A DNA stretch of 64,000 nt from Kondoa subrosea (Eukaryota): positions 620,001 to 684,000 of the forward strand of contig BCIN01000007.1 of NCBI GenBank assembly GCA_039545335.1. Direction: 5' to 3'. The notes beneath the pieces are model-generated. The model was given only the letters and a program-made list of their open reading frames with translations, was not told the DNA's origin and did not search any database. A program made the position numbers and the translations under genes. How positions within the stretch are numbered: position 1 is the stretch's first letter; each line of letters begins with the position of its first letter. Positions 22,193 to 37,900 of the stretch are shown piece after piece.

Positions 22193-22590
22193 AGGTCATC
22201 ATGCAAGATCTCTTCAGTATAGACTGCATTGCAGAACATTACGAAATGACGATTCATATTTTGCGATACTTTGACCCACAACAACGAGACTCGCCAGAAG
22301 TGCGAAGAGATACCACTGTGGACTGTAGGATACCATATCGAAGTATACCAGCCTTTATTTGAGCTTCTTTGCAAGCCTGCCAGCTCGCCTCGATATATTC
22401 TGTCGGAAGAGCAGACTGAGAGCCTGGATTGCGATAGACAACCGGTACAGCTCAGGATATAGTTAAGAAGTCATCGCTGGGTGTAGCAGCAAGGGAAACT
22501 TGAAGCCTTTTGAATTCTTCATCGAGCTAGCAAAGTTGGTGAGGCATCGCATGTATATTCCGAAAGCCTTCTGATATGGTTTGTCTCAGA

Positions 22591-23976
22591 ATGGATAGCA
22601 TACCGAACGAGATACTTCTCGACATCTGTTCGCACCTAGCTGAAGAAAGTCATGCCTTTCTTGCAAAACTCTGTCTCGTCTCATCTCGCTTCAATGGAAT
22701 CTGCACACCTCTTTTGTATCGAAGAATCCCTGAAGGTGTTATTTCAAGTGACGAGCTACTGAACACTCTCAGCACAGCTAAAGGGAAGCGTTTAGCGGAA
22801 CTAGTACTGGAAGTGGAATGCTGCAGCCTAATAGATTCTACATCGCTGCAGAGAGCAATTGCTTTGGCTGTCGAATGCCGCGAATCAGACCTCAAGCGAA
22901 GCCTGGCATATTTACAGCACTTCAGCTCACTTCGAAGTTTTACGTTGCGTTTGGATTTTGGAACGATATCTTGGCTAAGCCAAACTCAAATGGAGGATTT
23001 GAGACTTTTAAGAGTTCCTCAAGCAGCTGAATTGAATTCGCTGCCATTCTTGCCTACTCTGACTCGATTGACACTTTGTGCGACTGGGATAGAAGAGCAT
23101 TGCCCAAATTATAGCTCCTTGGCGACTCTCATTGCCTCTGCACCTCGCCTCGAATCACTATCATTACTTAGCATCTGTTCTTCAGAATTCTACAAAGCCC
23201 TATCTTTCGCCTTACTTCAAGGTCATTTAGTCTGCCGGTCTCTTCGTAACCTGACCTGGAATTCTGGAGGACATTATCAATTTCCCCTGGACTCTACAAC
23301 ACTCGAGACTATACACCTACTCGCGGGTCTACCTCATATAGCGAAGTTGGATTTGGAAGCCTCTGTTATGCAAAAGAATATCGATAGTCTCACAATAACA
23401 TCATTATCAGTCGCAAGTATGGGTTATGCGCAATTTGCAGCGACCATTGGTATCTTCTGCGCCGGCTTGCCGAATTTGCGGAATTTGAACATGACGATTT
23501 TCGCCGACGACGCAGATCTGGATCAAAATACCCTGACTTATCTTCCTTTGACCTTCCCTCAAACCTCGCTCCGGCTGCAAAGAATCCAAATAATCAGACC
23601 CAACTGTTACATGAGTCGGAACGCGTTGCGTTTCGATATCCGACCTATCTGCGACCTTACTTCTATCTTTTACACTTCAAACATCTTTCCTGCACTCAAA
23701 GAGCTCGATATCCAATTGTGTTCAAGCTTTCATTGGGAAGATGCCGAAGATGCAGGAGTTGTTATTGATGTCGATCCCCCCGAAGGTCCTTGGGATATCG
23801 ACGAATTGGAGCAGACCGTACTTGATTGGGCTTCGAAGGGTAGCGGACGTATTCAGTCAAATCTGGTATTCGAATCATGCATGTTGGAGTGGTCCTGCAA
23901 ATTTTCGCCTGACGGATCACATGAAACAACCAGTCGGAGCACACAAGATCAAGTCGTCCGCAGTCAAGCTGAATAG
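22591..23976 (+). CDS. F-box/LRR-like protein, intronless CDS; probable 5'UTR intron 22539-22589
   Basis: MDSIPNEILLDICSHL...LAKLCLVSSRFNGICTPLLYR is an F-box; Leu-rich body. Confidence 0.85.
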   Translation: MDSIPNEILLDICSHLAEESHAFLAKLCLVSSRFNGICTPLLYRRIPEGVISSDELLNTLSTAKGKRLAELVLEVECCSLIDSTSLQRAIALAVECRESDLKRSLAYLQHFSSLRSFTLRLDFGTISWLSQTQMEDLRLLRVPQAAELNSLPFLPTLTRLTLCATGIEEHCPNYSSLATLIASAPRLESLSLLSICSSEFYKALSFALLQGHLVCRSLRNLTWNSGGHYQFPLDSTTLETIHLLAGLPHIAKLDLEASVMQKNIDSLTITSLSVASMGYAQFAATIGIFCAGLPNLRNLNMTIFADDADLDQNTLTYLPLTFPQTSLRLQRIQIIRPNCYMSRNALRFDIRPICDLTSIFYTSNIFPALKELDIQLCSSFHWEDAEDAGVVIDVDPPEGPWDIDELEQTVLDWASKGSGRIQSNLVFESCMLEWSCKFSPDGSHETTSRSTQDQVVRSQAE

Positions 23977-26389: not shown

Positions 26390-27555
26390 TTACCAGCAGT
26401 CCACAACGACTTTCCCAATGTGCTTTTGAGCCTCCAAGTATTTCAAAGCTTCCTTCATTTCCTCTAGCTTGAAAACCTTCGGATCAAGAAGAGGATTCCA
26501 GCCATTAGCATCGATAGATGTAACGAGGTCTTCGAGCTGGGTTCGAGATCCAACGGCGATTCCCTTCACGGTACACGTCCTATACCACGCTTGGAGTAGA
26601 CCAGGCTCAGGTTCGCCATCTGTTTCGGCAACAGCTCCAACTATTGAAATGATCCCATCGACCTTGATTGCATTGAGAGAGTGCTTAAGTGTAGCTGAGC
26701 CCCCAACCTCCACAACGAAATCAACTCCTTGACCACCTGGAGTCAACTTCTTGACTGTCTCGCCCCATGAAGCATCTTCCCTGTAGTTGATAACGTGTTC
26801 CGCTCCAAGCGTTTTGAGCTGGACCGCCTTTGCCTCACTGGATGTTGTGCTGATAACAGTAGCGCCAGCCGCTTTGGCTATCTGAAGTGCAAAGACGGAA
26901 ACACCTCCAGTACCTAGAGTTACGTCAAAATCTTTGGTCCAGCCTCATGCATCTCGACAAAAGGGAATCGTAACAAACCCAGAGTCAGAACGGTATCACC
27001 ACTCTTGAGCGGCCTGCCTTGTACACCATAAAGAGCGTTCCATGCAGTGACACCAGCACAAGTCAAGGTACTTGCTTGTCTGAAATCTAGCGTTTTAGGC
27101 ATATGAACCAATCCGAACTCTTCAAAGACCCCATGTTGCCTCATTGTCCCATCCAAACTACCACCAAGACTTGTTTGCATAATTTGAGGCGTCAAAGATC
27201 CATCAATATGACCTTGATGTAGCATAGTGCAAACTGCATCACCGATCTTGAAGCGGGTCACTCGAGAGCCAATCTTAAGAACAGTTCCAGCTGCATCGGA
27301 GCCTGGAACCACAGGAAGATCCATTGGGAAGGGATATGTACCCTTTGACCCGAAAATGAGTACAGTAGTACCAGTGCCAGAAGAACTCGACATTACCTTG
27401 GGAACCATTGTATCCCTGAAGTTGAGAGAGATGGCCTCGATCTTGATTAGACAATCATGGTCGCCAAGTTGTGTTGGAATAGGCTGTTCGACGAGTTTGA
27501 TACCATCGATCCCTGAAAATGCTTCGACCTTCCATGCTAATGAAGTCTGGCTCAT
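26390..27555 (-). CDS. MDR-superfamily zinc-independent alcohol dehydrogenase/quinone reductase-like protein, 2 introns
   Basis: AISLNFRD, VPGSDAAG, LTCAGVTAWNAL, GTGGVSVFALQ, GVDFVVEVGG, HIGKVVV. Confidence 0.93.
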
Positions 27556-28128
27556 GTTGTCTATATCGATTGGATTGATGTAGGGCTAGATTGGGCAGGC
27601 TGAGCGCAGAAGAAGGATAGGAACCAGTACTGATTTCTTTGTGATTACTCATTGTACAGTCAGATGCCGGTCTTGTGCAGCGCGGCGCGGCGGTCGCTCT
27701 GTCATCGAGTATGCGCGAATAGCACAGACAAGTCGAAGCAGCAGGCAGTGCTATGTATTATGACGCGAGAAGGATGCGAGCTACGAAACTTGAGATCCAG
27801 TGTTGTTGAAGCAAGGCTTTGGACGATTGAGGAACTCGGAAAGGCTAGAGGCATTGTAGAGGCGCTGCGGATGCGGGTCAAGCACACAGGTAGAGCCAGA
27901 ACCCAGATATCGACAGGCCGTATGTGAAGAAAAGACATTGGACAACTAGAAGCGAGATTATAGCCGCGCGTCACAATTATGCTAGACCGATTCAAAGGTA
28001 TTATACTCAATTCACTTGCAGATACACGAAAAAGATATAGCACTGCTGCTGTTTTAAACACGAAGACTAAAGTTAATGAAAAGGGTTCTACATGTATCAT
28101 AGTCCATCCATCCATCCAGCATTACAGC

Positions 28129-34165: not shown

Positions 34166-35650
34166 TCAATCTTGCGACTCGGCTGCAACGCTCTCTTCCT
34201 CATCCTCTTCTTCGCTTTCTTCTTTTTCACTCTTGACTTCAATATCATCATCAATCCATTCCTTCTCTGCCCAAGGCTGACCAGTCGTCTCAACTCTCGC
34301 TTCACCATTGATCTCCCTAATAAGCCTTGCATGACCCATGCTGAATTCTAGCTCAACTGTAACCTGAAATTTATCGATACCAATAATTGACCATTCTTTA
34401 ATCTGAGTAACTAATTCTTCGTATCTGCTTGAAGGATGCGAGGTCCAGTTAAAGCTGATGTGAAGAAGTTTAAGCTGAGGGAAGACTTGTTTGTCGCCAA
34501 AGATTTTACAAAGATCTAGTAAGTGATCCAGATCGTTTAGCGGTTCTGACTCAAAGTTGCCGAATTGCAGCTGGATTTGAACGAGGTGCGAGAAAGAAGA
34601 GGTTGAAGTATATGATCCTTGTTCACCAATCAGAAAGCTGGTCAACTCGTGTAAAAGGCTACTGCGAAGGCAATCTTGGTAAACTTCGAGATGCTTCAAC
34701 AGCGGAAATGTTTTGCCAAGCTCTTCGAGAATACTGACTGCCGGCATGGAAGAACACGACTCCAGAGTCAGATGGGTGATATCTTGGCAACTTGTGCTTA
34801 GTTCGTAGATCTCGGTGGCAGATAGTTGACAGGCGATGAGTTCTAACCGACGAATACTAGGAAAGGCTTGCATCACAGACTGAATCTTCCATATTTCGAT
34901 AATATTTTCGTCGCTTGTATAGCCATTCGGTTCGGTTTGATCCCAAATGAGCTGTTCAAGAGTTGATTTGTAACCCTTTGGGAACTTACATTCGTCACAG
35001 AAGGACGGATCAATGAGGTGAAGATACAGTACGACGAGAGCTGGAGAGGCGATAATGAGATAAGCAAAGGTATCCGGGTACATTATCGCTCCGCAACTAT
35101 GTGACCGTAAAGAAAGAGTTTTGAGATTGGCCAGATTAGGTGCAATCTGCTCAACCTGATGAGAACTAGGAAGCATGGAGCGGGCTAGATGCCGGTAGAG
35201 AGGAAAGTCTTCTACATCTTCACTGCACCTAGGCTGAAAAGCAACTCTTCGATATTGGGGGCCGTGCTGATTAGAGCCAGTGATTTCTTTGCCCTGGCCT
35301 TGCACTTCTCAATGAGCATCTGTTGCTCAGCTGCTGAAGGTATCCACTCATCGCTGTTATATCGGAGTCGCCGAGCGGTCCTTCTAGCTGTATAGTGTTC
35401 GCAATAGCCAGTTTGCATACCATCTTGCCCAACTCAACGCCATTCTTCGATGTGGTGAGAACATGAAGTAGTTTGTCATCTTCAAGATAGCTTGCTCGAT
35501 ATCAGAGTAAAGAAGTGGGCGAGCAATGTCATTAAAATTCTTGCAGACCAAGCAGAGACTGGCTAAATCAGAGTGCTCATCTACACTTGCAAGAATGTGC
35601 ATGCACAGCTCCAAAGGTAGCTTCATAGAGAGCTCTTCAATGGAGTGCAC
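34166..35650 (-). pseudogene. F-box/LRR gene with three apparent frameshifts (related to 22591-23976)
   Basis: LPLELCMHIL...LASLCLVCKNFNDIARPLLY, then similarity to the paralog continues in successively different frames (EDDKLLHVLTTSKNGVELGKMV; KKSLALISTAPNIEELLF; long 3' ORF). Confidence 0.65.
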
Positions 35651-35842
35651 AGACTTGAGCTTGTTTCTGGCTCAAGTCGCGAGTGGGAAGGCTTCGAGCA
35701 GGAAGAAGCGCTTGTGCAACTAGAATCGTGTCTCGTGTGTCTGTGGCCAACCCAATAGTGACCTTTTGTGTCTGAGTTGGTTGCGCAATGCGAACAATGC
35801 ATTTTATCACATCAAACTGATCGAACACCTCTAGCCGCAAGT

Positions 35843-37477
35843 CTATACTCTTGATACCGTAGCAGTGATGAGACCGCTGTGAAGACATTCAGCGGAAATC
35901 TTCGCGACAAGAGATCGAATACCTTGGTCTGTCATCACATAATCAAGTCAGCTGAAGAAATGATGCGAGCCATAGCACGCACGCTGCAACTGGCATGAAG
36001 ACTTCCGCGTCTCCTACAGCTGTGTTCTTGTAACCTTTGTAGAACGACATATCGACAGCAAAGTAATCTATCAGACTCCTTCAGCAAATGCGAACAGTTT
36101 CCGCTTCGAAACAAACGCTGAAGCAAGGTATTAGAGCCATCAAAGACGTACGTAAGAAACTCACCTGATTTGGCAAACGATATGTCACATCTGAAACCTG
36201 CTTGTTATCGCTAATGATCTTTTCGCACATTTTGTACCTGCAAGTTCGTCAACAAACGCCGCATCGCCAATCACAATCTAAAACAGAACTCACAGCGTTG
36301 CTTGCACACTTGCGCTGTCGTGCTCAGCAAAGACGCGCAAAGTAGTATCCACCACCGATTTATAGACAGCATCAAAAGGTATACCCAAATCCGATATGTT
36401 ATCGACTGTGAGTGCCGTAGAAGGGATAACAATATCGTAGCTGCAGTCGACTGATGTTGAAAATATCCGATCGCTGACCTCTGTCAGGATTACTTTCAGC
36501 ATGATTCGTCGACTAGACGGAATTAGACATACCTGGGAGAGTAGTAAACTCATCACGGACAAAGTTCTCGAAAGCTGATCCAGTAGATTTTAGCACCAAA
36601 AGATCTTGCAAGCCTATTCGAACGTTTCTTCAGCTTAGCGCGACCCCAAATGTAAAGTGGTATACTTACCTGACTTCACTTTAGCAGAAATCTTATCCTT
36701 GCCTTGAGTAGCATCTACTTCTACGCTGACAATGCGCTTATCATCACCATCTCGCTGGAAAGAATGAGGGTGTGCTTGACCGTCGATAGGTATGCGAGAC
36801 CATTTCAGCTGAGTGATATCTATAAAAGCTTTGTGGATGTGGGCATAAGTCTTGACGAAATGTGTGCCTAGTTCTAGAGCGAAAGATTCAGGTTGTAAGA
36901 CATTCTTGCTTTCTTTCGCCTTGACTTTGTGAAAAGATTAGCTTCTCCCCGCTGGCTTATAGGGTTACTGACTGTAGATAGTGTTCTTGATGCTTTAGCA
37001 AGGTATCAGCACCATACACAGCTTCGCGAAGGGTAGCCTAACGAATCAGTCGCAACGACGACTAGACAAAGACATAAGCTCGCAAAGTAGTCATATGCAG
37101 AAAGACGTACCAGAATTATCTGATTGAGTATAGCTCGTTTCTACATCCCTGTTATACGATTAGAAGCTGTCTAAAGTAATCAAGCTCCAACGAACCCTTC
37201 CAGCAGAGCTCGACTATCTCAACGTTAGCTCCCTGCAGACCAATACAGCATGTGAAGCTCACACATTGTACTCTGCTACTTCGTGGAAAGCGCCATTGCG
37301 GACGACTCTAAGTACGCGGACCTTATAACAACAGAGCGATAAGGCCATGCATCTTGCATTTAGCCTTGGCTGCGGCTTACTTTATCTTTCCCACTACAAG
37401 ATCCAGATCAGCTAGGTCCACAATGGAAACGGAGCCAGTACGCACTATCGGGCAGCTGATAGTTTTACTGTGCTCAT
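35843..37477 (-). CDS. uox: Urate oxidase (uricase), ~15 exons including 1-nt and 6-nt micro-exons
   Basis: YGKDKVRV, SYTQSDNSVVVATDSIKNT, VLKSTGSAFENF..DEFTTLPE..DRIFST, SASVQATL, LPNQHYF, PSGLITATV. Confidence 0.95.
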
Positions 37478-37900
37478 GCTTTCAACTTGAATTTCTTAGT
37501 ATGACAAATTGAGGTTGCAGGGATGACTTGAGTGTCAGGAGCAGCCTATTGATCTTATGTCAGTGCAGATGGTGGTCCCAAGTAGAGCCTGGAAAGGGGT
37601 CTATCGTTTTGCAAAGTAAGCAGAGACATCAAACTTTGATTGGGCGATAAGGTGAAAAGGAGCGTTTAGCAGCTTATAGCAGATCAGCGGACTGCTAGGA
37701 CATGCAAAGGTGTATGAACAGGAACATCTTGGCCCTTCGCAAACCCGGAATTGCTTCACCGCAACAGTACAGCTATTCTTTTGTTTTCCCTTTCCACGAA
37801 TTCGCTATCGTTACATTCCTTGTTCCTGTACCAGCTTGGAGTAGCGTGCTCCAATAATCTGGTTTACCTACGCGCACATCCAGGCTCCATTCTCGTCTGC

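What the first reader, a model, noticed from the sequence alone, without database searches (positions are those of the whole stretch)
36068..36164. Single-nucleotide exon (C at 36117) builds the conserved His of the uricase PNxHY motif
Seen on the minus strand: ...TTG CCA AAT CAG | gtgagt...ctaat...cttcag | C | gtttgt...ctgatag | AT TAC TTT GCT GTC GAT. Two back-to-back introns of normal size for this genome (47 and 49 nt), each with its own donor and acceptor, flank one base. Including it gives LPNQ-H-YF. Established: uricases carry a conserved active-site PNxHY motif (Asn254/His256 in Aspergillus flavus). Skipping the base, or retaining the second intron, shifts the frame and loses the C-terminus. 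Inference: an obligatory 1-nt exon, spliced sequentially by intron definition or in a twin-intron-like way. One-nucleotide exons are very rarely documented and gene predictors generally miss them. Skipping could also act as an on/off switch for purine catabolism.
Basis: partly seen in the sequence, partly recalled or inferred. Interest (0 to 1): 0.9.

Follow-up and report, generated by a model that had tools for sequence, protein, structure and literature searches.

The report
One-base exon in fungal uricase gene
In a mushroom-type fungus, the gene for the urate-degrading enzyme uricase most likely carries an exon one base long that supplies the first letter of an active-site histidine codon; this is a rare, already documented kind of gene structure that gene finders miss.

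Summary
On the minus strand, a 47-nt GT-AG intron (36164-36118) and a 49-nt GT-AG intron (36116-36068) flank a single C at 36117, inside a uricase gene (37477-35843) that then has 15 exons and 14 introns of 46-59 nt.

Keeping the C gives LPNQ-H-YF. Dropping it shifts the frame and gives a stop 21 codons later.

Indirect evidence is strong:
- A fully spliced cDNA of a relative (89% protein identity) reads CAA CAT TAC at this junction.
- Codons downstream of the His show 18 synonymous against 5 replacement differences.
- All 160 of 185 fetched uricases that cover the motif have N-x-H with exactly one residue between.
- Read-derived contigs of two DNA runs show no indel, though they may be the assembly's own source.

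No RNA run of this organism was listed, so the junction itself is unproven.

The main rival is one 84-nt intron from GTACGT at 36151, which would insert VSFL before the His.

One-base exons are already published for Arabidopsis, other plants, Fusarium and Coprinopsis (13 cases). This scan also noted a putative one in Naegleria (e1-634989). This is a new member of a known kind.

The parts
35843..37477 (-). Uricase (urate oxidase) coding region, ATG at 37477 to stop TAG ending at 35843. It has 15 exons and 14 introns and encodes 306 aa.
   Evidence: The model was built by spliced alignment to the relative's cDNA L001 and completed with the 1-nt exon. It is 89% identical to P0002 over the full length with one 1-residue gap. 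Its largest exon matches solved uricases at E 6.8e-18.
36165..36237 (-). Exon 11 (73 nt), ending ...CGT TTG CCA AAT CAG (R L P N Q). The intron after it is phase 0.
   Evidence: It aligns to L001 bases 762-832.
36118..36164 (-). Intron A, 47 nt: donor GTGAGT, branch-like CTAAT with its A 14 nt before the 3' end, pyrimidine-rich tail, acceptor CAG.
   Evidence: Three truncated database proteins (P0014, P0046, P0165) end LPNK followed by V..., as if an ORF ran into an intron at this same position.
36117..36117 (-). Proposed 1-nt exon: C (G on the + strand), the first base of the His codon C|AT. This His is the equivalent of His256 of Aspergillus flavus uricase.
   Evidence: The relative's cDNA has exactly two bases (A and C of CAA CAT) between the HSPs that end at 36166 and start at 36067.
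36068..36116 (-). Intron B, 49 nt: weak donor GTTTGT (G at +5 and T at +6 kept), branch-like GCTGAAG with its A 13 nt before the 3' end, acceptor TAG. The junction after the 1-nt exon is phase 1.
   Evidence: The GCTGAA branch-like motif recurs in introns 8, 9 and 14 of the same gene.
35983..36067 (-). Exon 13 (85 nt), starting AT TAC TTT... (His bases 2-3, then YFAVDMSFYKGYKNTAVGDAEVFMPVA).
   Evidence: Only frame 2 is open and matches the relative. The other two frames give unrelated sequence, one of them with a stop. It aligns to L001 bases 835-914.
36146..36151 (-). Alternative donor GTACGT inside intron A. Paired with the acceptor at 36068 it gives an 84-nt intron and LPNQ-VSFL-HYF. This is the rival model.
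   Evidence: Second-best open path in the exhaustive enumeration, score 243 against 257.
35923..35928 (-). 6-nt exon ACCAAG of the same gene, between introns of 54 and 46 nt. It shows that ultra-short exons are normal for this gene.
   Evidence: It is needed to read ...PVAAPSGLITATV..., matching P0002.

Best explanation
The C at 36117 is a real, constitutive one-nucleotide exon of a functional uricase gene in an intron-dense basidiomycete (Agaricomycotina).

Shown by the sequence:
- Two ordinary short spliceosomal introns, each with its own GT donor, branch-like motif and AG acceptor, lie one base apart.
- Removing both joins CAG + C + AT TAC, so the mRNA reads Gln-His-Tyr. This restores the frame and the active-site His of the PN-x-H motif.

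Inferred mechanism:
- In this genome introns are about 50 nt and are presumably recognised across the intron (intron definition), so exon length does not matter for recognition.
- A's acceptor and B's donor overlap within a few bases, so two spliceosomes cannot sit there together. The introns must be removed one after the other, much like recursive splicing except that one base is kept.
- Either order is possible. Exon 11 and intron A both end in TCAG, so B's donor sees the same upstream context (TCAG-C|GTTTGT) before and after A is removed.
- A has the stronger signals and is more likely removed first.
- Direct joining of A's donor to B's acceptor (skipping C) would give a frameshifted mRNA with an early stop. 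This is probably a minor, unproductive by-product.

Inferred origin: intron A's position seems shared with other lineages, so B was probably gained one base downstream of an older intron. Alternatively, a cryptic AG-C-GT inside an older intron was recruited.
For: Anatomy:
- Sizes of 47 and 49 nt lie within the 46-59 nt range of the other 12 introns of the gene. Donors of the gene are degenerate, with G at +5 in 13 of 14, so GTTTGT fits.
- The gene has other tiny exons of 6, 13, 18, 19 and 20 nt, all validated against a relative's spliced cDNA.

Necessity:
- Without the C the frame breaks after LPNQ and stops 21 codons later.
- Of 1597 open in-frame paths using one or two GT/GC-AG introns of 30-250 nt, the A+C+B path scores best against the relative (257) and is the only one giving LPNQHYF.

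Expected mRNA:
- cDNA L001 of a relative (about 82% nucleotide identity in the largest exon, 89% protein identity) reads CCA AAT CAA CAT TAC TTT.
- It leaves exactly two bases between the alignments ending at 36166 and starting at 36067.
- A second relative's cDNA, L002, reads AAC AAA CAT TAT.

Functional constraint:
- Downstream of the His, 17 codons are identical, 18 differ only synonymously and 5 change the residue. Upstream the counts are 119, 119 and 27.
- The His aligns with the His of LPNKHYF in A. flavus uricase, E 8.6e-84.
- Passages of PMC7792999 place His256 hydrogen-bonded to Lys10 and Asn254 at the peroxo hole.
- 160 of 185 fetched uricases have N-x-H and none has a longer spacer. 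The other 25 are truncated or mis-predicted.

Not an assembly error: contigs rebuilt from the reads of two DNA runs (depth 145 and 55) cover 35800-37550 with 0 differences and 0 gaps.

Chance: 47 of 200,000 shuffles give such a split with C.

Precedent: one-nucleotide exons with RNA proof exist in Arabidopsis APC11 (PMC4674806, abstract and discussion), plant VPS55 (PMC8831610, passages), Fusarium CYP621A (PMC12940212, abstract, results and discussion) and 13 genes of Coprinopsis cinerea (PMC12230235, passages).
Against: - There is no RNA of this organism, so the junction CAG-C-AT has not been seen here.
- The relative's cDNA shows what the mature message should read. It does not show that the relative, or this species, builds it from a 1-nt exon.
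- The two DNA runs come from one sample that may be the source of the assembly, so they are not independent of it.
- Intron B's signals are weak: donor GTTTGT, and a branch-like motif ending in A rather than a pyrimidine.
- A canonical single-intron alternative that keeps a His exists: the 84-nt intron giving LPNQVSFLHYF.
- Seven genomic contigs of more distant agaricomycetes, in two sequence groups, have no intron at all at LPNKHY. The structure is therefore not ancient, and its conservation could not be tested.
- The lenient two-unit pattern alone occurs about 0.45 times per shuffled window.
Confidence: 0.85

Rival explanations
1. There is one 84-nt intron. The spliceosome ignores GTGAGT at 36164 and uses GTACGT at 36151 with the acceptor at 36068. 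Exon 11 is then 13 nt longer and the protein reads LPNQ-VSFL-HYF: a His is still made (C|AT), but four residues are inserted. An automatic gene finder would probably choose this model.
For: It is canonical GT-AG, open and in frame, and second best in the enumeration at score 243 against 257. GTACGT is also the donor of intron 5 of the same gene. It needs no rare structure.
Against: - 84 nt is 8 sd above the gene's other introns.
- It requires skipping a consensus GTGAGT that lies exactly at the codon boundary where three other lineages also seem to have an intron.
- It leaves the internal CTAAT...CTTCAG-C-GTTTG arrangement as coincidence, at about 0.1% of shuffles.
- It puts four residues between Asn254 and His256. 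None of the 160 informative uricases has any insertion there, and both relatives' cDNAs lack it.
- Passages of PMC7792999 describe Pro253-Lys255 as a short linker at the active site.
Confidence: 0.06
2. The gene is broken here. A single 97-nt intron is removed, or one base was lost at the acceptor in this lineage, and the product is a C-terminally truncated, inactive uricase, that is, a young pseudogene.
For: The simplest spliced alignment, with a penalty per intron, picks the 97-nt intron and a frameshift. Uricase loss is known in some lineages (recalled).
Against: - The codons after the break are conserved in the correct frame, with 18 synonymous against 5 replacement differences to the relative.
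- All the other 12 introns and the tiny exons downstream (6 nt and 34 nt) are intact.
- 97 nt is 11 sd from the gene's other intron lengths.
- The exact base needed for His sits between perfect splice signals.
Confidence: 0.03
3. It is an assembly or sequencing indel: the true genome reads ...GATAG|CATTAC and there is one 97-nt intron.
For: The two runs that could be laid may be the assembly's own source, so a systematic error could be shared.
Against: - Contigs rebuilt independently from reads of two runs, at word depth 145 and 55, match the window over 35800-37550 with no difference and no gap.
- The site is not a homopolymer.
- A 97-nt intron would be an outlier, and the internal splice signals would be coincidence.
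Confidence: 0.02
4. A non-canonical single intron restores the frame. Either TG-AG (equivalently GT-TA) boundaries shifted by one base give LPNQ-D-YF, or AG-AG boundaries give LPN-H-YF.
For: Both are arithmetically in frame (read from the sequence).
Against: - All 14 introns of the model are GT-AG.
- The first option replaces the catalytic His with Asp. The second deletes the residue between N and H. Neither is seen in any of the 160 informative uricases.
- The relative's cDNA has Q and H.
Confidence: 0.02

Closest known systems
One-nucleotide exons in Coprinopsis cinerea (long-read annotation; PMC12230235, passages read)
   Same: Same fungal class-level group (Agaricomycetes), short introns and many micro-exons. 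The paper reports 13 exons of 1 nt in 13 genes, 57 of 2 nt and 27 of 3 nt, and says that omitting them usually creates premature stops.
   Different: Those are supported by full-length transcripts; this one is not. The passages read do not name the genes, and uricase was not found in the three small supplementary tables that could be read. The PDF supplements could not be read and may list the genes.
Fusarium CYP621A one-nucleotide exon (Nelson and Syed 2026, PMC12940212; abstract, results and discussion read)
   Same: It is a fungal gene in which a single base between AG and GT completes a codon inside a strictly spaced conserved motif (G of PKG). It was inferred from a phase mismatch plus an intronless homologue used as a ruler, the same logic as here. 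The interval is about twice the normal intron length.
   Different: - The exon is G (AG-G-GT) and is the middle base of its codon. Here it is C and the first base.
- It is conserved in 20 or more Fusarium orthologues and confirmed by SRA reads. Here conservation and RNA are untested.
- It is in an ascomycete.
Arabidopsis APC11 and plant VPS55 1-nt exons (PMC4674806, abstract and discussion; PMC8831610, passages)
   Same: Constitutive single-base exons between two GT-AG introns, missed by annotation. The authors favour intron definition with one-after-the-other removal, the mechanism proposed here.
   Different: They are in plants with longer introns. They are experimentally validated (GFP fusions, RT-PCR) and conserved across land plants. 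VPS55 also shows alternative isoforms with and without the base.
Recursive splicing at zero-length exons (ratchet points) and fungal stwintrons (both recalled, not read here)
   Same: Two consecutive splicing reactions act on one intervening region, and a 5' splice site lies directly after a 3' splice site.
   Different: - At a ratchet point AG|GT abut and nothing is kept. Here one base stays in the mRNA.
- In a stwintron an inner intron interrupts a splice signal of the outer one. Here both introns are complete and independent.
Putative 1-nt exon in Naegleria gruberi CPRas noted earlier by this scan (e1-634989)
   Same: A single base between two tiny introns completes an invariant codon. It too was left without RNA proof.
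   Different: Different organism and gene. It is an unchecked AI note and is not used as evidence.

Membership tests
Uricase / urate oxidase (Pfam PF01014, cofactor-independent) | Sequence homology over the full length to solved uricases | tested here: met
   The exon-8 translation P0001 hits 11 PDB uricase sequences, best E 6.8e-18. The relative P0002, 89% identical to the gene model, matches A. flavus uricase at E 8.6e-84 over residues 8-306. Homologues carry PF01014.
Uricase / urate oxidase (Pfam PF01014, cofactor-independent) | Active-site residues equivalent to Lys10, Thr57, Asn254 and His256 of A. flavus uricase | tested here: met
   The model has ...RYGKDKV......VATDS... and LPNQHY, identical to P0002 at these places. 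P0002 aligns them with the A. flavus residues. Their roles are taken from passages of PMC7792999. His256 is met only if the 1-nt exon is used.
Uricase / urate oxidase (Pfam PF01014, cofactor-independent) | Enzymatic activity (urate to 5-hydroxyisourate) | not testable with these tools
Spliceosomal one-nucleotide exon (as in APC11, VPS55, CYP621A, C. cinerea) | One base flanked by an AG acceptor upstream and a GT donor downstream, each belonging to a complete intron of normal size | tested here: met
   CTTCAG-C-GTTTGT. The introns are 47 and 49 nt against 46-59 nt for the other 12, and each has a branch-like motif 13-14 nt from its 3' end.
Spliceosomal one-nucleotide exon (as in APC11, VPS55, CYP621A, C. 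cinerea) | Phase mismatch of the flanking exons that only the single base resolves, restoring a conserved residue | tested here: met
   Phase 0 after exon 11, and phase 1 is needed before exon 13. This is the only path giving LPNQHYF among 1597 open paths. The N-x-H spacing is invariant in 160 of 160 informative homologues.
Spliceosomal one-nucleotide exon (as in APC11, VPS55, CYP621A, C. cinerea) | Transcript reads of the same organism spanning the junction | not testable with these tools
   No RNA holder was listed. Only cDNAs of relatives (L001, L002) with CAT at the site are available.
Spliceosomal one-nucleotide exon (as in APC11, VPS55, CYP621A, C. cinerea) | Conservation of AG-N-GT in orthologues of related species | not testable with these tools
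   No genomic DNA of close relatives could be reached. Distant agaricomycete contigs (7 contigs in two groups) have no intron here. Three truncated proteins hint at an intron at A's position.
Stwintron (spliceosomal twin intron; definition recalled) | An internal intron interrupts the donor, acceptor or branch signal of an external intron, so the outer one becomes functional only after the inner one is removed | tested here: not met
   A and B do not overlap, each has intact signals, and one base between them stays in the mRNA.

The most novel reading that the evidence does not exclude
Inclusion of the single C might be regulated. When urate need not be degraded, A's strong donor would be joined directly to B's acceptor, or B would be retained, giving a frameshifted message with an early stop that is degraded. 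The one-base exon would then act as a splicing switch for purine catabolism.

An 8-bp pairing between A's acceptor plus C and B's branch region could set the order or efficiency. Nothing here tests this. The fold is no better than shuffles (z 0.44).
Probability: 0.07. Interest if true: 0.65.

Novelty: new member of a known kind. Interest (0 to 1): 0.42.

Why it matters
If confirmed, this is a clean case where one base, spliced as an exon, carries part of a catalytic residue of a well-studied enzyme.

- It is a practical warning for annotation of intron-dense basidiomycete genomes. A standard gene finder will truncate this uricase, insert four residues into its active site, or call it a pseudogene.
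- It offers a compact natural substrate, 97 nt in all, for asking how two spliceosomes deal with splice sites one base apart and in which order.
- It does not open a new mechanism. One-base exons are already proven in plants and fungi.

Tried and rejected
- RNA evidence: no RNA holder was listed. Only two DNA runs of one sample hold the stretch, and laying them showed identity only.
- Whole genome of the window: not held, so intron statistics come from this gene and a crude window scan. That scan shows an excess of intron-like units only at 45-59 nt.
They were two cDNAs of relatives (L001, L002), one more distant cDNA (L003), 7 genomic contigs of distant agaricomycetes without an intron at this site (L004-L009, L012), 2 bacterial-like intronless uricases (L010, L011) and 2 weak hits (L013, L014). 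The contigs behind P0014, P0046 and P0165, whose ORFs seem to run into an intron at A's position, could not be fetched.
- Introner-like or duplicated origin: A and B are not alike (about the middle of 91 intron pairs of the gene), and neither has another copy in the window beyond 9-13-nt chance matches.
- RNA structure: the fold of 36185-36050 is no better than shuffles, z 0.44.
- Other strand: no notable ORF on the + strand under the gene.
- Neighbouring long ORFs gave only F-box-like and ADH_N Pfam hits. They have no link to purine catabolism and gave no closer taxonomic placement.
- Coprinopsis supplements: the three readable tables hold no 'microexon', 'uricase' or 'urate'. The PDFs are unreadable here.
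- Literature: among 30 listed of 35 papers holding 'single-nucleotide exon' or its variants and 12 papers with other wordings, none concerns uricase. A uricase plus microexon search was swamped by papers holding only the two enzyme names and is uninformative.
- Structure prediction of the two isoforms was not done, because spliced sequences cannot be handed to the tools.
- This genome had no earlier notes in the scan.
Full report
**What is there.** Read on the minus strand, the window holds a uricase gene from ATG at 37477 to a TAG ending at 35843. Its largest exon (36924-36670) translates to 84 residues. These match 11 solved uricase sequences (best E 6.8e-18) and 36 database proteins, nearly all basidiomycete uricases.

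- The best database match, P0002, is 95% identical over that exon. It comes from a 1026-nt contig (L001) that holds an uninterrupted 307-codon ORF, so it is a spliced transcript of a related species.
- The named hits are Mycena, Marasmius, Dacryopinax and other Agaricomycotina at 54-72%. The window therefore comes from an Agaricomycotina fungus that could not be placed more closely.

**Gene model.** A spliced alignment of the L001 coding sequence to the gene, using GT-AG introns of 38-129 nt, recovered 14 exons. It chose one 97-nt intron between 36165 and 36067 plus a one-base gap. The resulting translation leaves the frame after LPNQ and stops.

- Inserting the single C at 36117 as an exon gives 15 exons and 14 introns of 46-59 nt. 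The protein is 306 residues and aligns to P0002 end to end with 89% identity and a single one-residue gap near the N-terminus.
- The gene is extremely fragmented. Besides the 1-nt exon it has exons of 6, 13, 18, 19 and 20 nt, and every one is needed to match the relative's cDNA.
- More distant agaricomycete genomic contigs (L008, L009) show about 8 interruptions in the same gene.

**The observation.** It holds exactly as stated.

- Exon 11 ends ...CCA AAT CAG at 36165.
- Intron A (36164-36118, 47 nt) has donor GTGAGT, a CTAAT branch motif and a pyrimidine-rich CTTCAG end.
- Then comes C at 36117.
- Intron B (36116-36068, 49 nt) has donor GTTTGT, a GCTGAAG branch-like motif 13 nt from its end, and acceptor TAG.
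- Exon 13 starts AT TAC TTT.
- The donors of this gene are degenerate, with G at +5 in 13 of 14, and GCTGAA recurs as a branch-like motif in three other introns. B therefore looks weak but native.

**Is it more than chance?**

- Conditional on the 97-nt interval, 205 of 200,000 shuffles of its inner 71 nt produced any AG-N-GTNNG split with both halves at least 40 nt and a branch motif. Only 47 did so with C.
- A lenient window-wide pattern for two intron-like units one base apart hit only this locus. Shuffled windows gave 0.45 hits on average. The pattern alone would not be remarkable. Its exact position and base are.
- 47 and 49 nt lie at -1.1 and -0.6 sd of the other 12 introns. 84 nt lies at +8 sd and 97 nt at +11 sd.
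- A crude window scan also shows an excess of intron-like units only at 45-59 nt.

**Is the base needed?** I enumerated all paths through 36237-35983 using one or two GT/GC-AG introns of 30-250 nt, from 313 candidate introns. Of these, 1597 are open and end in the right phase.

- The A+C+B path scores highest against the relative (257) and is the only one giving LPNQHYF.
- The runner-up (243) is a single 84-nt intron from GTACGT at 36151, giving LPNQ-VSFL-HYF.
- Next (239) is a 93-nt intron that loses the His.
- Skipping C gives 17 wrong residues and a stop. Retaining A or B alone shifts the frame, and retaining both gives a stop.

**Independent support.**

- The relative's cDNA reads CCA AAT CAA CAT TAC TTT. 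In the blastn alignment exactly two cDNA bases lie between the segments that end at window 36166 and start at 36067, one for the G at 36165 and one for the C. A second, less clean cDNA (L002, about 80% identity) reads AAC AAA CAT TAT.
- Against L001, the 40 codons after the His show 17 identical, 18 synonymous-only and 5 replacement differences. This is the same pattern as upstream (119, 119, 27). The C-terminal frame is therefore under purifying selection and must be reached.
- P0002 aligns to Aspergillus flavus uricase with LPNQHYF opposite LPNKHYF (E 8.6e-84). In chain numbering that starts one residue later, these are Asn254 and His256.
- Passages of PMC7792999 describe His256 accepting a hydrogen bond from Lys10 of the Lys10-Thr57 dyad, Asn254 holding the catalytic water, and Pro253-Lys255 as a short linker between two strands.
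- Of 185 uricase-like proteins fetched carry N-x-H with exactly one residue between and none has a longer spacer. The other 25 are truncated or mis-predicted.
- Contigs rebuilt from the reads of two DNA runs (word depth 145 and 55) cover 35800-37550 with no difference and no gap. This argues against an assembly indel. Both runs are from one sample that may be the assembly's source.

**What could not be shown.** No RNA run of this organism was listed, so the junction has not been observed here.

- No genomic DNA of a close relative could be reached, so conservation of AG-C-GT is untested.
- Seven contigs of more distant agaricomycetes, in two sequence groups, read LPNKHY without interruption. 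The two introns are therefore not ancient in the class.
- Three truncated database proteins (P0014, P0046, P0165, from unnamed metagenome or run assemblies) end LPNK followed by V... This is what an ORF gives when it runs into a GTN... intron directly after the Lys codon. It hints that intron A's position is shared more widely and that B is the newcomer. It is only a hint.

**Mechanism (inferred).**

- Introns of about 50 nt in fungi are taken to be recognised across the intron, so a 1-nt exon poses no recognition problem.
- A's acceptor and B's donor lie within a few bases, so two spliceosomes cannot occupy them at once and removal must be sequential. The authors of the Arabidopsis case reason the same way (PMC4674806, discussion).
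- Exon 11 and intron A both end in TCAG. B's donor therefore has the same upstream context before and after A is removed, and either order can work. A has the stronger signals.
- The process resembles recursive splicing, except that one base is retained. It is not a stwintron, because neither intron interrupts a signal of the other (both definitions recalled).
- A and B are not similar to each other and have no other copies in the window. The local fold is not unusual (z 0.44), although an 8-bp complement links A's acceptor plus C to B's branch region.

**Rivals.**

- The 84-nt intron model is the only serious one. It needs nothing rare. However, it skips a consensus donor at a codon boundary, gives an outlier intron, and inserts four residues into an invariant active-site spacing.
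- Pseudogene, assembly error and non-canonical boundaries are each contradicted by at least one test above.

**Comparison with what is known.** One-nucleotide spliceosomal exons are established.

- Arabidopsis APC11 (PMC4674806).
- APC11 and VPS55 across land plants, with RNA-seq and RT-PCR (PMC8831610, passages).
- Fusarium CYP621A, called the first fungal case by its authors (PMC12940212).
- 13 such exons in Coprinopsis cinerea from long-read annotation (PMC12230235, passages).
- None of the 30 listed of 35 papers using the term, nor the 12 using other wordings, concerns uricase.
- This scan earlier noted a putative case in Naegleria (e1-634989; an unchecked note, not used as evidence).

The finding is therefore a new member of a known kind: probably real, neat because it builds a catalytic His, useful as an annotation warning, and still awaiting RNA proof. 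The proposed on/off switch is possible but unsupported.

**Verdict.** Novelty: new member of a known kind. Interest: moderate.

Noticed in passing
window 35923-35928, 37381-37393, 37196-37213, 37043-37061, 36973-36992 (minus strand): The same uricase gene has further micro-exons of 6, 13, 18, 19 and 20 nt. With 14 introns in a 921-nt coding sequence, against about 8 in distant agaricomycete contigs, it is unusually fragmented. The genome may be rich in ultra-short exons.
   Followed up: partly
L002 about 100-110 (cDNA of an ~80% relative) versus window 37263/37213 junction: L002 lacks one base a few nucleotides from where the window gene has its exon 3/exon 4 junction, which shifts the frame. 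It also has an in-frame stop further on. This could be mis-splicing, an assembly error or a pseudogene transcript.
   Followed up: partly
P0091, P0187, P0188 (annotated Dichomitus squalens uricase): The public protein models lack about 10 residues around LPNKHY and part of an earlier segment. This may be a mis-annotation at the same motif or a degenerate gene.
   Followed up: no
P0014, P0046, P0165 (unnamed metagenome/run assemblies): Three truncated uricase ORFs end LPNK followed by V..., as if they read into an intron that starts right after the Lys codon. This is the position of intron A here. Their DNA could not be fetched.
   Followed up: partly
window 36124-36115 and 36086-36079 (minus strand): An 8-bp complement pairs CUUCAGCG (A's acceptor, the C, and the first G of B) with UGCUGAAG (B's branch-like region). 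It is present in both the MFE and the centroid fold, but the overall fold is not better than shuffles.
   Followed up: partly
window 35843-35855 (minus strand), C-terminus of the model: The protein ends -SRV, the relative ends -TRA, and other agaricomycete uricases end -SRK or -SRKH. None is the -SKL type peroxisomal signal of the Aspergillus enzyme (recalled), so targeting may differ.
   Followed up: no
window 22543-23976 (+), 34166-35671 (-): The long ORFs nearby are F-box-like or lack any family, as is typical of agaricomycete genomes. An ADH_N-domain ORF lies at 26920-27585 (-). No purine-catabolism neighbours were seen among the 15 ORFs of at least 220 aa.
   Followed up: partly
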